Assembly (NCBI RefSeq): GCF_009914755.1
Contig: NC_060943.1
Reading direction: 5' to 3' (one strand)
DNA: 64,000 bases
Source: the human T2T-CHM13v2.0 reference genome, Homo sapiens
Below are positions 22,601 to 30,483 of this stretch, piece by piece; positions within the stretch are counted from its first letter, which is position 1; each line of letters begins with the position of its first letter. The notes below the pieces were generated by a model that worked only from the letters and a program-made list of their open reading frames with translations, had not been told where the DNA came from and made no database searches. The position numbers and the translations under genes are program-made.

Positions 22601-25600
22601 TTTACATTTAAGGTTAATATTATGTGTGAATTTGATCCTGTCATTATGATGTTAGCTAGTTATTTTGCTTGTTAGTTGATGCAGTTTCTTCCTAGCATCA
22701 ACGGTCTTTACAATTTGGCATGTTTTTGCAGTGGCTGGTACCAGTTGTTCCCTTCCATGTTTAGTGCTTCCCTCAGGAGCTCTTTTAGGGCAGGCCTGGT
22801 GGTGACAAAATCTCTCAGCATTTGTTTGTCTGTAAAGGATTTTATTTCTCCTTCACTTATGAAGCTTAGTTTGGCTGGATATGAAATTCTGGGTTGAAAA
22901 TTCTTTTCTTTAAGAATGTTGAATATTGGCCCCCACTCTCTTCTGGCTTGTAGTTTCTGCCGAGAGATTTGCTGTTAGTCTGATGGGCTTCCCTCTGTGG
23001 GGAACAAGACCTTTCTCTCTGGCTGCCCTTAACATTTTTCCCTTCATTTCAACTTTGGTGAATCTGACAATTATGTATCTTGGAGTTGCTCTTCTCGAGG
23101 AGTATCTTTGTGGCATTCTCTGTATTTCCTGAATTTGAATGTTGGCCTGCCTTGCTAGGTTGGGGAAGTTCTCCTGGATAATATCCTGAAGAGTGTTTTC
23201 CAACTTGGTTCCATTCTCCCCGTCACTTTCAGGTATACCAATCAGATGTAGATTTGTATTTTCACATAGTCCCAAATTTCTTGGAGGCTTTGTTAATTTC
23301 TTTTTACTCTTTTTTTCTCTAAAGTTCTCTTCTCACTTCATTTCATTCATTTGATCTTCAATCACTGATACCCTTTCTCCCACTTGATGAAATCAGCTAC
23401 TGAAGCTTGTGCATGCATCAAGTAGTTCTCGTGCCACGGTTTTCAGCTCCATCAGGTCATTTAAGGTCTTCTCCACACTGTTTATTCTAGTTAGCCATTC
23501 GTCTAATCTTTTTTCAAGGTTTTTAGCTTCTTTGCGATGGGTCTGAACATCCTCCTTTAGCTCAGAGAAGTTTGTTATTACCAGTCATCTGAAGCCTTCT
23601 TCTCTCAACTCATCAAAGTAATTCTCTCCGTCCAGCTTTGTTCCATTGCTGGCAAAGAGCTGCATTCCTTTGGAGGAGAAGAGGTGCTCTGATTTTTAGA
23701 ATTTTCAGCTTTTCTGCTCTGGTTTCTTCCCATCTTTGTGGTTTTATCTACCTCTGGTCTTTGATGATGGTGACGTACAAATGGGGTTTTGGTGTGGATG
23801 TCCTTTCTGTTTGTTAGTTTTCCTCCTAACAGTCAGGACCCTCAGCTGCAGGTTGGTTGGAGTTTGCTGGAGGTCCACTCCAGACCATTTGCCTGGATAT
23901 CACCAGCGGAGGCTGCAGAACAGCAAATATTGCAGAACGGCAAATGTTGCTGCCTGATCCTTCCTCTTGAAGCTTCGTCTCAGAGGGGCACCCGGCTGTA
24001 TGAGGTGTCAGTTGGCCCCTATTGGGAGGTGTCTCCCAGTTAGGCTACTCAGGGGTCAGGGACCCATTTGAGGAGGCAGTCTGTCCGTTCTCAGATCTCA
24101 AAATCCATGCTGGGAGAACCACTACTCTCTTCAAAGCTGTCAGACAGGGACATTTAAGTCTGCAGAAGTTTCTGCTGCCTTTTGTTCAGCTATGCCCTGC
24201 CCCCAGAGGTGGAGTCTACAGAGGCAGGCAGGCCTCCTTGAGCTGTGGTGAGCTCCACCCAGTTCGAGCTTCCCAGCCGCTTTGTTTACCTACTCAAGCC
24301 TCAGCAATGACGGACGCCCCTTCCCCAGCCTTGCTGCCGACTTGCAGTTTGATCTCAGACTGCTGTGCTAGCAGTGAAAGAGGCTCCGTGGGTGTGGGAC
24401 CCTCCGAGCCAGGCATGGGATATAATCTCCTGGTGTGTCATTTGCTAAGACTGTTGGAAAAGTGCAGTATTAGGGTGGAAGTGTCCCGATTTTCCAGATA
24501 CCATCTTTCACGGCTTCCCTTGACTAGGAAAGGGAATTCCCCGACCCCTTGCACTTCCCAAGTGAGGCAATGCCCCGCCCTGCTCCATGGGCTGCACCCA
24601 CTGTCTGCCAAGCCCCAGTGAGATGAACCTGGTACCTCAGTTGGAAATGCAGAAATCACCCATCTTCTGCATTGCTCATGCAGGGAGCTGTAGACTGGAG
24701 CTGTTCCTATTTGGCCATCTTGGAGCCTCAAGGCCGAGTACTGTTATATCTTAGTTGTTACAGTGTTATGTTTAATCAGATACATATTACATATCCAATA
24801 ATTAATATAAAACATAGGATTGACACAAATAGACTAAAATAGTTAATTTTTTTCTTTTTTTGTAGTGATGGGGTCTCCCTATGTTGCTGGTCTCAAGTCA
24901 TCCTCCCGCCTTGACCTTCCGAAGTGCTGGGATTATAGGTGTGAGGCAATGCACGCAGCCTAAAATATTTTAGAATATAAAAGGGATATAACAGATACAA
25001 CAACTACTACTACTACTACTTCTGTTCCTACCACTCCTACTAAAGCCACCGTAAAAATTCCTGAGCCTCGAATACATAGATATCCAACAATGCCAACTCA
25101 TACCTAAAATCACACGATTACCAGAACACACTCCACATGTACTTGATGAAAATATATTCTTTTTTGAACAACTGCCAGAAAAATCAAGGGACTAATAATA
25201 TGTAGTCTCAGACCATTTGAAATGAATGCCTAAAGAGTTTCTACACACACATCCAATCAATGCATCTTTATAGACGCTTGGCATGTATTCCCAAACACCC
25301 CTTAGAAGACCACATAAATGCGACTCAACCAATGTATGTAGCTATAATCAAGCATTCAATAACATCTCAAACCAATGGACAGCACACATAATAATAGAAA
25401 AATGCTACCAGAAACAGACATGCCAATCCAAACAGATCATTACCCAGCCTGGCCATCATGGTGAAACTCCGTCTCTACTAAAAATACAAAAATTAGCTGG
25501 CATGGTGGCTCATGCCTATAATCCCAGCCACTCGGGAGGCTGAGGCAGGAGAATTGCTTGAACCTGGGATGTGGAGGTTGCAGTGAGCCAAGATCGCACC

Positions 25601-28600: not shown

Positions 28601-30483
28601 GACTCACAACTAGCTTTTGACCCAAGTACACAGACAGATAAAAGATATAATCTACAAATAACCACCTTAGAAAAACCATTATTTATTGATTATTTTATAC
28701 AAAAATAATTAGTATTCCAATTCTGAAAAACTATATACTACACCTTTCAGGATAGGGTACCCAAACTAGATATGGTACCCAAACTGACATATCAGCATCA
28801 AAAGAATACCCACAATCAGCCAGGCGCGGTGGCTCATGCCTGTAATCCCAGCACTTTGGGAGGTTGAGGCAGGCAGACCACCTGAGGTCAGGAGTTCAAG
28901 ACCAGCCTGGCCAACATGGTGAAACCCCATCTCTGCTAAAAAATAAAAGAATTAGCCGGGTGTGGTGGTGGGTGCCTGTAATCCCAGCTATGCAGGAGGC
29001 TGAAGCAGGAGAACTGCTTGAACCAGGGAGGCAGAGGTTGCAGTGAGCTGTGATCATGCCGTTGCACTCCAGCCTGGGCGACAGAGTGAGATTCCATCTC
29101 AAAAAAAAGAAAAAAAACAACAACAAAACTACCCACAATGACTCTAGACTTAGGAACCTTCCACTGGTTAATTGCTCAGAGAAAAACACACTGACCTATT
29201 ACAACCACACGAGGAAAGAAAAAATCACAACATACACTTACAATCAGAATGTATCAAAGTGGTGTGTGTCATAAACATCACTCTCACAAACACCTCAAAG
29301 CTTACCACTTAGCCGGGCGCGGTGGCTCACGCCTGTAATCCCAGCACTTTGGGAGGCCAAGGCGGGCAGATCACAAGGTCAGGAGATCGAGACCATCCTG
29401 GCTAACACGGTGAAACCCCGTCTCTACTAAAAATACAAAAAAATTAGCTGGGCGTGGTGGCGGGCGCCTGTAGTCCCAGCTACTGGGAAGGCTGAGGCAG
29501 AATGGCTTGAACCTGGGAGGCGGAGCTTGCAGTGAGCTGGAGATCGCGCCACTGCACTCCATCCCGGGCGACAGAGCGAGACTCCGTCACACACAAAAAA
29601 AAATGCTTACCACTTATATACGGAACAAATGACATACAGAGATTTTGCATCATCATGGCACTCCAACATAGGCGAAATCTCTTGGGTAGAAACCACACAG
29701 ATAAACACACACAAACAAGAAAATTTAAAAGAACCTGAACAAGCTCACAATTAATTCCATCCAGAAACCAAAGAAACTAAAAATCGCACACATTCACGCA
29801 AGGGAACAAAATTACCCAGAGCGAAGGGAAACTGGAATTAAGGGTGGCTAGAATTAATATTTGATCAAGGAGTCCAAAGGGAAGAAACACAAACTTTCTG
29901 ATCAGTTAAGATAAGGAGTCCCCTTCCCCGCAGTTCGAAAAGAAAGCCCACATTCAGAAGGTCAAAAACACCCCCAGACTTGAGTGCTGGGAGCACTAGA
30001 GGGGGTCAGTCCCTGGTGATGAGGGCAGGGGCGTTTGAACAGCCACAGGAACCTGACCCCGGCAGCAAGGACCTAGCCAGGCTTCGGTTCTCACAAGTGA
30101 GGAAACGCACCCGTGGATTCATCGTAAGGTTTCCAACCAAGTGGTTTCTTAAACGCACAAACCCCACAGACCGAGATGGGATCTCCCCAGGACCCTCCCG
30201 CTGTCACCGAACAATCCGGGGAGACGCGGGGCTGCGGGCGCAGAGCTGCCCATAGAGGGCTCCAGGACCGGGGGCCGAGGTCGCCCCGCGGGGACGGGAC
30301 AGGACGCTGGGGCTCCCGGCTGCGGGTCCAGCTCCCACAGAGAGGACCGAGGGCCGAACTGCGCCCGCGGTGGCCCCCGGGTCTGCAAACCCCGGAGTTG
30401 ACTGCAAGGAGGTCCCCGGCCTCGGCCACAGACGGTTCCAACCAGAAACCTCCCCTCGGACACTGGCCCCGCACACTCACCAT
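8877..30483 (-). CDS. ZNF14: KRAB-C2H2 zinc finger protein 14, spliced CDS join(30483..30481,12012..11886,11676..11616,10614..8877), 642 aa
   Basis: GT-AG exons of 3+127+61+1738 = 1929 nt give [74 protein letters not shown]...HMGEKV*. This is KRAB-A, KRAB-B-like and 19 C2H2 repeats; sequence and length match ZNF14 as recalled. Confidence 0.93.
11616..11676 (-). CDS. ZNF14: ZNF14 exon 3 (KRAB-B-like, 61 nt)
   Basis: ttttag|GAAAAAAGTGGGAAGACCAGGAC...CGAAG|gtgag, encoding [19 protein letters not shown]. Confidence 0.92.
11886..12012 (-). CDS. ZNF14: ZNF14 exon 2 (KRAB-A, 127 nt)
   Basis: tttcag|GACTCAGTC...TGTCTAG|gtaag, encoding [42 protein letters not shown]; canonical KRAB-A exon size. Confidence 0.95.
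12884..13371 (-). mobile_element. Solo ERV1 LTR (LTR15-like)
   Basis: 488 bp; minus strand begins TGGAACAGGAATTAAAAGAAAT and ends CA; near-TSD CTAC/CTAT; subfamily recalled from memory. Confidence 0.65.
14473..15248 (-). mobile_element. MER21-family LTR
   Basis: Contains GACTCCACAGGTTAAGGACTCAGTCCCACAAGACTGCCCCC; minus strand begins TGTGATATGATAAGAAAGATA. Confidence 0.65.
15260..17870 (+). mobile_element. Old L1M 5' region (decayed ORF1 and start of the ORF2 endonuclease) with an Alu insertion
   Basis: ORF1-like [18 protein letters not shown]..., ENFPKL-like segment, and EN-like GDFN / [13 protein letters not shown]. Confidence 0.75.
19807..24728 (-). mobile_element. L1PA (about L1PA5-7), 5'-intact and 3'-truncated; ORF1 from 23733, ORF2 from 22644, both disrupted
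   Basis: 5' end CCAAGATGGCCAAATAGGAACAGCTCC; 5'UTR about 1 kb; ORF2 MTGSNSHI.. and RT peptides appear in the ORF track; similarity stops within ORF2 at about 19807 with no 3'UTR or poly(A). Confidence 0.93.

What the first reader, a model, noticed from the sequence alone, without database searches (positions are those of the whole stretch)
24960..29960. Fossil long reading frame hidden between Alus in ZNF14 intron 1: candidate endogenous viral or unknown-element gene
Seen: the roughly 2.8 kb of non-Alu sequence here is strongly A/C-skewed on the plus strand (antisense to ZNF14) and resembles no L1, ERV or cellular gene I recognise. Most Alus have clean TSDs (e.g. AAACAGATCATTA 25430/25687, AAGAAAyCCAATACA 28141/28462, TACCCACAAT 28807/29130, GCTTACCACTTA 29300/29605). 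Excising them rejoins plus-strand frames exactly. Examples: [89 protein letters not shown] (~89 stop-free codons over two Alus); [121 protein letters not shown]. Other open stretches are [79 protein letters not shown] and a Thr-rich [17 protein letters not shown]. An 18-nt duplication ([12 protein letters not shown], about 28751-28786) keeps frame. Inference: this is a decayed intronless ORF of roughly 900 codons that predates these Alus. It could be a non-retroviral endogenous viral element or an unclassified mobile element. I cannot name the protein.
Basis: partly seen in the sequence, partly recalled or inferred. Interest (0 to 1): 0.8.

Follow-up and report, generated by a model that had tools for sequence, protein, structure and literature searches.

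The report
Decayed endogenous retrovirus fragment, not new gene
The "hidden reading frame" is the badly decayed part downstream of pol (probably the envelope gene) of an ancient foamy-virus-like endogenous retrovirus in ZNF14 intron 1, later chopped up by Alus and an L1, so it is an ordinary genomic fossil.

Summary
The non-Alu DNA at 24960-29766 is not unique sequence. It is one piece of a truncated, LTR-less fragment of an ancient endogenous retrovirus (ERV), window 18215-29766, sense on the + strand. Collinear copies at 73-80% identity lie on chrX, chr7, chr4, chr15 and chr1. The chrX and chr4 copies carry about 700-bp LTR pairs, and the chrX, chr7 and chr4 copies carry a tRNA-Ser-like primer site. 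RT, RNase H and integrase follow in that order, and the RT is closest to foamy-virus RT (class III/ERV3). At least 224 LTR-like candidates exist genome-wide. The window copy starts inside integrase, is split by a minus-strand L1 (19806-24744) and eleven Alus, and has lost about 1.2 kb.

But the longest open run (89 codons) is what shuffles give. Only a modest depletion of stops remains in the window. The fossil reading frame is clear in the paralogs. chrX has 232 codons with one stop, and this stretch has relatives at 32-43% identity. I found no known Env family signature and could not name the exact Repbase/Dfam family. Verdict: an ordinary, known kind of repeat; low interest.

The parts
18215..19796 (+). 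ERV fragment, first part: from the middle of the integrase core onward. Interrupted by Alus at 18498-18780 and 19206-19490.
   Evidence: blastn collinear with chrX, chr7, chr4 and chr15 copies at 71-81% identity. Window 18215 aligns to chrX local 13222, inside that copy's Pfam rve hit.
19806..24744 (-). L1 insertion that splits the ERV.
   Evidence: Pfam hits on the minus-strand read-through: Transposase_22 1.4e-54, Tnp_22_dsRBD 2e-42, Exo_endo_phos 3e-14, RVT_1 7e-15. The ERV copies are continuous across this point.
24744..24845 (+). ERV piece just after the L1.
   Evidence: blastn to chrX (74%) and chr7 (82%).
24860..24960 (-). Partial Alu-like fragment.
   Evidence: Alu-like by blastn to a window Alu at 24892-24960 and by reading the sequence.
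24961..25442 (+). ERV piece downstream of pol.
   Evidence: blastn 73-76% to chrX and chr7; Tandem Repeats Finder.
25443..25699 (+). Alu1 (5'-truncated) plus the second TSD copy.
   Evidence: TSD 13/13 at 25430 and 25687. The chrX copy is continuous across the site.
25700..25760 (+). ERV piece.
   Evidence: blastn 79% to chrX and chr7.
25761..26072 (+). Alu2 plus the second TSD copy.
   Evidence: TSD 10/10; site continuous in chrX.
26073..26509 (+). ERV piece.
   Evidence: blastn 72-86% to chrX and chr7.
26510..26815 (-). Alu3 plus the second TSD copy.
   Evidence: TSD 13/14 at 26496 and 26802.
26816..26845 (+). ERV piece.
   Evidence: blastn 82-93%.
26846..27153 (-). Alu4 plus the second TSD copy.
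   Evidence: TSD 11/12 at 26834 and 27142.
27154..27555 (+). ERV piece.
   Evidence: the genome search and blastn give 73-75% over the full length to chrX and chr7.
27560..27855 (-). Alu5, sitting at a window-specific deletion of about 1.2 kb of ERV sequence.
   Evidence: chrX local 10221 to 9005 (1,216 bp) has no counterpart in the window, though chr7 and chr4 have it. No clean TSD.
27856..28155 (+). ERV piece with a heptad-like stretch. Possibly the fusion-subunit part of Env; this is inferred.
   Evidence: blastn 77-79% to chrX and chr4; translation.
28156..28476 (+). Alu6 plus the second TSD copy.
   Evidence: TSD 14/15.
28477..28816 (+). ERV piece. Contains a window-specific 18-nt tandem duplication at 28751-28785.
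   Evidence: blastn 77% to chrX and chr4; Tandem Repeats Finder. The chrX and chr4 translations have a single copy.
28817..29139 (+). Alu7 plus the second TSD copy.
   Evidence: TSD 10/10.
29140..29311 (+). ERV piece.
   Evidence: blastn 81% to chr4 and 80% to chrX.
29312..29616 (+). Alu8 plus the second TSD copy.
   Evidence: TSD 12/12 at 29300 and 29605; site continuous in chr4.
29617..29766 (+). Last ERV piece. Homology ends here and no 3' LTR follows.
   Evidence: blastn 73% to chr4. A relaxed blastn of three LTR sequences against 29500-32000 found nothing beyond 29766 with E below 0.2.
29767..29960 (.). Rest of the finding's interval. Not ERV-homologous; it leads into the ZNF14 promoter and exon 1.
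   Evidence: No match to any copy.

Best explanation
Window 18215-29766 is a dead, doubly truncated copy of an ancient class III (ERV3, foamy-virus-like pol) endogenous retrovirus. It has no LTRs, gag, protease, RT or RNase H left. It lies in ZNF14 intron 1, antisense to the gene.

The finding's interval (24960-29766) is the stretch downstream of integrase. In the ancestral virus this stretch carried one or more long reading frames, most likely the envelope gene.

After integration the copy decayed neutrally. Sister copies imply roughly 50-110 million years. It was then split by an L1 and eleven Alus and lost about 1.2 kb at Alu5.

The A-rich, G-poor strand bias is the virus's own composition, not a local mutational effect.

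No present function is indicated. What is shown: repeat nature, retroviral identity, orientation, the order of insertions, and a fossil-frame signal in paralogs. What is inferred: that the frame was env, and the age.
For: - **Paralogs.** Collinear copies at 73-80% identity lie on chrX, chr7, chr4 and chr15, and a fifth locus lies on chr1. They extend far beyond the finding.
- **LTRs.** The chrX and chr4 copies have terminal direct repeats at 80.4% identity over 547 nt and 77.5% over 537 nt.
- **LTR copy number.** A 690-nt LTR query drew 224 first-look candidates. All 40 that were scored matched, most over the full length at 74-81%.
- **Pol domains on the strand that equals window +.** chrX has RVT_1 7e-10, RNase_H 3e-5 and rve 2e-5 in that order. 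chr4 has RNase_H 1.6e-10 and rve 0.004.
- **RT class.** The RT piece hits foamy-virus PR-RT structures at about 2e-16. HIV, FIV and Ty3 score about 1e-6.
- **Primer-binding site.** An 18-mer just after the 5' LTR matches the complement of a human tRNA-Ser(TGA) 3' end at 11-12 of 18 positions. The first 12 differ only by two CpG-to-CpA changes. None of 2000 random windows reached 12/18.
- **Composition.** The sense strand is A 36-40%, G 13-17% in all copies.
- **Fossil frame in the paralogs.**
  - The chrX region downstream of pol gives z = -5.65 in the frame-path test. Pol controls give -3.8 and -3.2. LTRs and antisense strands give about 0 to -1.3.
  - chrX has 26 sense runs of at least 50 codons against 9 antisense.
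  - chrX has 232 codons with one stop.
  - A search of 1.84 billion proteins gave 14 hits. Two are spurious bacterial repeat proteins. Of the 12 real ones, 7 share only 32-43% identity yet keep the same motifs.
- **Order of events.** The Alus and the L1 came later, because the copies are continuous across their sites.
Against: - The window copy itself has no LTR.
- It has no Pfam domain in any of 42 frame-pieces of 24949-30000, nor in the + frames of 12013-19800. Its retroviral identity therefore rests on homology to the paralogs.
- The window's own open frames are chance-sized.
- The shared-stop test shows no signal for 27856-29300. It also shows none for the integrase C-terminal control, so its power is limited.
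- No Env family was detected: no Pfam hit, including the gamma-type and foamy Env models; no hit to solved-structure sequences; no immunosuppressive-domain or CX6CC motif. 'Env' is therefore an inference from position and length.
- The primer-binding site match is partial.
- I could not name the Repbase/Dfam family, because no Dfam tool was on hand.
Confidence: 0.93

Rival explanations
1. One reading: a fossil gene of a non-retroviral endogenous virus or of an unclassified mobile element, standing on its own between the Alus.
For: No Pfam family matches in any frame of the window pieces. The 232-codon paralog frame has no relative in solved-structure sequences.
Against: The block is collinear with proviruses that have LTR pairs, a primer-binding site and RT/RNase H/integrase directly upstream on the same strand. 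The window copy itself continues upstream into integrase at 18215.
Confidence: 0.02
2. The stretch downstream of pol never encoded Env. It held other (accessory or captured) genes, or was largely non-coding, and the stop depletion is a compositional by-product.
For: No Env signature of any known type. Kojima 2018 (PMC5753468, passages read) says most mammalian ERV3 families lack env. About 4 kb downstream of pol is more than one typical env. The shared-stop test is silent for 27856-29300.
Against: Strand-specific stop depletion as strong as in pol. Runs of 156+75, 122, 121 and 102 codons in chrX and 181 in chr7. Protein-level relatives at 32-48% identity that keep motifs. By my own reading of the translations, a hydrophobic stretch is followed by heptad-like repeats in the 3' part, as in class I fusion subunits.
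Confidence: 0.25
3. Unique intronic DNA whose A/C skew comes from transcription-coupled mutation bias along ZNF14, with chance open frames.
For: The skew is antisense to the gene. The window's longest open run equals chance.
Against: The same sequence and the same skew occur in copies on five other chromosomes, in either orientation. The skew is much stronger than in neighbouring window DNA at 31000-42000.
Confidence: 0.01
4. An old segmental duplication shared among a few loci rather than a transposed element.
For: Only six loci carry internal sequence.
Against: LTR pairs bound the copies. At least 224 candidate dispersed LTR copies exist. The pol genes are retroviral. Flanks outside the LTRs do not align between loci.
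Confidence: 0.02

Closest known systems
Class III / ERV3 endogenous retroviruses of the dUTPase-less 'ERVS' lineage (Kojima 2018, PMC5753468; Vargiu 2016, PMC4724089)
   Same: RT is closest to foamy-virus RT. The order is RT, RNase H, integrase. No dUTPase hit after integrase. The primer site is tRNA-Ser-like. LTR divergence of 20-23% lies within the 13-42% that Vargiu reports for class III.
   Different: The sense strand is A 36-40%, G 13-17%. Canonical HERVS is about A 25, G 27, and HERVL about A 28, G 23 (Vargiu supplement). There is no gamma-type immunosuppressive domain or CX6CC motif, whereas the HERVS, HERVL32 and HERVL66 Envs have them. By eye, the LTR start differs from the printed HERVS, HERVL32 and LTR57 chains.
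HERV-L / ERVL (MLT2 LTRs)
   Same: Class III pol, ancient age, many solo LTRs against few proviruses.
   Different: ERVL carries a dUTPase at the 3' end of pol and no env (Vargiu and Kojima, passages read). Here no dUTPase is found, and about 4 kb with fossil frames follows integrase.
Foamy viruses (Spumaretrovirinae) and true endogenous foamy viruses
   Same: They give the best RT match. They are A-rich, about 10-11 kb long once insertions are discounted, and have a long region downstream of pol.
   Different: No hit to the Pfam foamy Env model or to any solved foamy protein outside RT. Kojima 2018 states that ERV3 and Spumavirus are separate lineages and that no endogenous foamy virus is found in human.

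Membership tests
LTR retrovirus / endogenous retrovirus | Two LTRs flanking the element | tested here: met
   Met in the paralogs: chrX 80.4% over 547 nt and chr4 77.5% over 537 nt. The window copy has none because it is truncated.
LTR retrovirus / endogenous retrovirus | pol with RT, RNase H and integrase in that order on one strand | tested here: met
   chrX: RVT_1 7e-10, RNase_H 3e-5, rve 2e-5. chr4: RNase_H 1.6e-10, rve 0.004. The window keeps only the end of the integrase core, shown by alignment; Pfam finds nothing there at E up to 0.01.
LTR retrovirus / endogenous retrovirus | tRNA primer-binding site directly after the 5' LTR | tested here: met
   11-12 of 18 positions match the complement of tRNA-Ser(TGA) plus CCA. 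None of 2000 random windows reach 12/18. The match is partial.
LTR retrovirus / endogenous retrovirus | Polypurine tract before the 3' LTR, and short target duplications flanking the provirus | tested here: inconclusive
   The junctions were printed. I saw no clear purine tract, and the LTR ends are too decayed to place target duplications.
Class III (ERV3) | RT groups with spuma-like rather than gamma-, beta- or lenti-type RT | tested here: met
   Foamy PR-RT chains at 2e-16 to 7e-16; the next best (FIV, Ty3, HIV) at about 1e-6. No tree was built.
ERVL lineage (HERV-L) | dUTPase domain at the 3' end of pol | tested here: not met
   No dUTPase hit in the sense frames of chr4 or chrX.
HERVS (HERV18/LTR18) | Balanced base composition and a class I Env with an LQNR-type immunosuppressive domain | tested here: not met
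   A 36-40%, G 13-17%, against A 25, G 27 in the Vargiu supplement. No such motif in any sense frame of 5 copies. No Pfam Env hit.
Gamma-type (class I) retroviral Env | Transmembrane subunit with immunosuppressive domain and CX6CC; Pfam TLV_coat | tested here: not met
   No Pfam hit at E up to 1 for the window and the chrX 3' part. The regex scan found only hits in unrelated or Alu sequence. Decay could hide it.
Foamy virus Env | Match to the Pfam foamy Env model or to solved foamy Env sequences | tested here: not met
   No Pfam or solved-structure sequence hit. The fold comparison could not be run.
Non-retroviral endogenous viral element | Viral gene remnant without LTR, pol or retroelement context | tested here: not met
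   The block is contiguous with retroviral integrase in the window and with full proviruses elsewhere.
L1 (LINE-1) | ORF1 and endonuclease-RT ORF2 domains | tested here: not met
   None in the ERV pieces. L1 domains occur only in the separate minus-strand insertion at 19806-24744.

The most novel reading that the evidence does not exclude
The roughly 4 kb downstream of integrase in this class III ERV family once encoded an envelope (or other large protein) unrelated to the class I, gamma-type Env. [quoted passage not shown] It would also be a trace of a 'native' ERV3 glycoprotein. The frame has diverged relatives (32-48% identity) in unnamed, probably non-human, DNA. It has no Pfam or solved-structure match and no immunosuppressive-domain or CX6CC motif.
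Probability: 0.12. Interest if true: 0.5.

Novelty: already known. Interest (0 to 1): 0.12.

Why it matters
This matters little for genome biology. The finding is one more decayed ERV fragment in a KZNF intron, of a family with hundreds of solo LTRs that repeat libraries almost certainly hold already.

The case is useful as a caution in two ways. A/C-skewed 'unrecognisable' DNA between Alus with in-phase open runs can be an old provirus interior. Open runs of about 90 codons are expected by chance at this composition.

The one point of possible specialist interest is that this class III family carries a long fossil frame downstream of pol with no recognisable class I Env signature. That would deserve a proper profile and fold comparison.

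Tried and rejected
- **Pfam, window pieces.** Six-frame scan with X at stops: 0 credible families in 42 frame-pieces; the best E was 0.089.
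- **Pfam, + frames of 12013-19800.** Nothing at E up to 0.01.
- **Solved-structure sequences.** A 599-residue read-through of the chrX copy gave nothing below E 0.8.
- **Word-index protein searches.** No hit for the 232-codon frame at near lengths. No hit for its alignment at longer lengths. P0010 found only itself, from a JGI contig.
- **3' LTR in the window.** A search with relaxed blastn scoring found none, so no claim that the ZNF14 promoter derives from an LTR.
- **Shared-stop test.** No signal for 27856-29300, nor for the integrase C-terminal control.
- **Regex scan for gamma-type Env motifs.** Nothing usable.
- **Rfam on 17000-31000.** 0 matches.
No fold evidence exists either way.
- **Naming the family from the literature.**
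  - Tristem 2000 is not held.
  - A search for locus-style names returned 0 papers.
  - Vargiu's Table S1 (.xls, provirus coordinates) cannot be read here. It might name the chrX, chr4 and chr7 proviruses.
  - Short motifs of the frame were absent from Vargiu's four readable supplements. Long sequences there are cut, so this is weak.
- **HERVS** was considered and rejected on composition, Env type and LTR start.
- **Transcription-coupled skew** was considered and rejected.

Full report
**What is in the sequence**

I read 24800-30200 and mapped Alu-like stretches with blastn against one of the window's own Alus. Eight Alus lie between 25443 and 29604.

- Three further Alus have TSDs of 10/10, 13/14 and 11/12.
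- Alu5 (27560-27855) has only an ambiguous 8-nt repeat.

The 2,562 non-Alu bases kept from 24961-29960 are A 40.0%, C 21.8%, G 13.4%, T 24.8% on the + strand. Tandem Repeats Finder shows that the 'Thr-rich' stretch is an (ACT)13 microsatellite at 25003-25042. It also confirms the 18-nt duplication at 28751-28785.

**Are the open frames more than chance?**

- 1000 dinucleotide-preserving shuffles of the same pieces give a longest + strand run of 88.4 +/- 21.1 codons. The fraction reaching 89 or more is 0.401.
- The + strand does carry fewer stop triplets than expected: 140 against 161.8 +/- 7.5, with 0 of 1000 shuffles as low.
- The minus strand does not: 164 against 171.6 +/- 7.9.
- A test that follows the best reading frame with a penalty for frame switches gives only z = -1.6 for the window's pieces, with 9 of 150 shuffles as low.

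So the window alone does not show a long fossil frame, only a faint strand-specific stop shortage.

**It is a repeat**

Whole-genome searches with three of the non-Alu pieces found full-length matches at 73-79% identity on chrX, chr7 and chr4, and a weaker one on chr15. I fetched 10-20 kb around each and compared them with the Alu-masked window.

- The homology is collinear and much larger than the finding. It covers window 18215-19796 and 24744-29766.
- Six Alu sites are uninterrupted in chrX and a seventh (Alu8) in chr4. The Alus therefore arrived later.
- The 4.9 kb between the two parts is a minus-strand L1, with Pfam hits to Transposase_22 (1.4e-54), Tnp_22_dsRBD, Exo_endo_phos and RVT_1.
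- At Alu5 the window lacks 1,216 bp that chrX, chr7 and chr4 all have.
- Homology stops at 29766. A relaxed search with three LTR sequences found no 3' LTR before or in the ZNF14 promoter.

**It is a retrovirus**

- The paralogs share 10-13 kb with one another.
- chrX and chr4 are bounded by direct repeats of about 700 bp, at 80.4% identity over 547 nt and 77.5% over 537 nt.
- I read the paralogs with X at stops, on the strand that corresponds to window +. The chrX copy gives RVT_1 (7e-10), RNase_H (3e-5) and rve (2e-5) in that order. The chr4 copy gives RNase_H (1.6e-10) and rve (0.004).
- Window 18215 aligns inside the chrX integrase-core hit. The window copy therefore begins in mid-integrase.
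- Everything from 24744 on lies downstream of pol, where a retrovirus has env.
- A 690-nt LTR query drew 224 first-look candidates genome-wide. All 40 that were scored matched, most over the full length at 74-81%. This is a populous LTR family with few surviving proviruses.
- Internal sequence was found at six loci in all, the sixth on chr1.

**Which kind of retrovirus**

- The RT piece matches foamy-virus protease-RT structures at 2e-16 to 7e-16. FIV, Ty3 and HIV RTs score about 1e-6. This fits class III (ERV3).
- No dUTPase hit follows integrase. That argues against the ERVL lineage as described by Vargiu 2016 and Kojima 2018 (passages read).
- Directly after the 5' LTR, the chr4 and chrX copies carry an 18-mer beginning TGG. 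I located a human tRNA-Ser(TGA) gene with a short motif search and ARAGORN. The 18-mers match the complement of its 3' end plus CCA at 11 and 12 of 18 positions. The first 12 differ only by two CpG-to-CpA changes. None of 2000 random windows of the provirus reach 12/18.
- It is my recollection, not a tool result, that a Ser primer is what the letter S in 'HERV-S' stands for.

The family is nevertheless not canonical HERVS.

- Its sense strand is A 36-40%, G 13-17% in every copy. The Vargiu supplement gives about A 25, G 27 for HERVS and A 28, G 23 for HERVL.
- The printed HERVS, HERVL32 and LTR57 chains start differently from this LTR, by eye.
- Those groups' Envs carry an LQNR-type immunosuppressive domain. 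I found none in five copies.

I could not name the Repbase/Dfam family because no Dfam tool was available. Vargiu's coordinate table is an .xls file that cannot be read here.

The shared composition across copies in both orientations shows that the skew belongs to the virus. It is not caused by transcription of ZNF14.

**Was there a reading frame downstream of pol?**

In the paralogs, yes.

- The frame-path test gives z = -5.65 for the chrX sense strand downstream of pol (0 of 150 shuffles as low). The two pol positive controls give -3.8 and -3.2. LTRs and all antisense strands give about 0 to -1.3.
- chrX has 26 sense runs of at least 50 codons between integrase and the 3' LTR, against 9 antisense. 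The longest are 156, 132, 122, 121 and 102 codons. chr7 has one of 181.
- The best stretch is 232 codons with a single stop. It lies in the 1.2 kb that the window has lost.
- phmmer of that stretch against 1.84 billion representative proteins returned 14 hits. Two are spurious bacterial repeat proteins. Twelve are short fragments. Five of these share 62-98% identity and are close copies; P0003 and P0005 look identical to the chr7 and chr4 copies in the alignment. Seven share only 32-43% identity yet keep the same motifs.
- One of the diverged fragments (P0010, an open 133-residue frame from a JGI contig) finds only these same human loci, at 40-48% identity. It probably comes from a related element in another host.
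- I also counted stops shared by at least two of four aligned copies. For the part matching window 24744-27555, the sense strand costs 20 against 26.7 +/- 2.5 under random placement (9 of 1000 as low). For the part missing from the window it costs 8 against 14.3 +/- 1.8 (1 of 1000).
- That test is silent for 27856-29300. It is also silent for the integrase C-terminal control, so its power is limited.

**Is the frame env?**

That is inferred from its position and length. By my own reading of the translations, a hydrophobic stretch is followed by heptad-like repeats in the 3' part.

No known Env family was detected:

- no Pfam hit in any sense frame of the window, chr4 or chrX;
- no match to solved-structure sequences;
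- no hit in the word-index protein searches;
- no gamma-type motif.

**Age**

Jukes-Cantor distances of the two LTR pairs are 0.23 and 0.27. These give about 52-61 million years at 2.2e-9 substitutions per site per year, or 94-112 million years at 1.2e-9. The rates are assumed, not measured here.

**Verdict**

The object is an ordinary, truncated, insertion-riddled class III ERV fragment with no sign of present function. Rfam finds nothing on either strand of 17000-31000.

The only thread worth a specialist's time is the frame downstream of pol, which has no recognisable class I Env signature. [quoted passage not shown]

Noticed in passing
window 19806-24744 (minus strand): A 4.9-kb L1 with ORF1 (trimerisation, RBD-like and dsRBD-like domains), endonuclease and RT domains is inserted into the ERV. 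Its frames are broken across three reading frames.
   Followed up: partly
window 39041-39184 and 39636-39737; L015 (chrX local 8109-8335): A 1.27-kb insert present only in the chrX provirus (local 7087-8363) shares 80-81% identity with two spots elsewhere in the window. It is presumably another interspersed repeat and not part of the ERV.
   Followed up: no
L019/L020 (chr4 local 868-981 and 10788-10905): About 115 bp just outside the 5' LTR and just outside the 3' LTR of the chr4 provirus are 77% identical to each other. This is far too long for a target-site duplication. I have no explanation; the provirus may have landed inside another repeat.
   Followed up: no
L016 (chrX local ~18740-18790) and L017 (chr7 local ~960-1000): Just after the primer-site-like 18-mer, the chrX and chr7 copies carry a second, similar motif about 27 nt downstream. 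It looks like a short tandem duplication of the primer-site region.
   Followed up: no
window 20591-21915; L021 (chr15 local 8445-9602, opposite strand): The chr15 locus that holds a diverged ERV copy also shares 78-85% identity with part of the window's L1. This probably reflects independent L1 copies.
   Followed up: no
window ~16500-18000 (+ strand): By eye, the + frame translation shows motifs typical of an old L1 endonuclease just upstream of the ERV's truncated 5' end. Pfam reported nothing at E up to 0.01.
   Followed up: no
genome-wide: The ERV's roughly 690-bp LTR has at least 224 first-look candidates. All 40 that were scored matched at 74-81% identity. Internal sequence was found at only six loci, a strong excess of solo LTRs.
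   Followed up: partly
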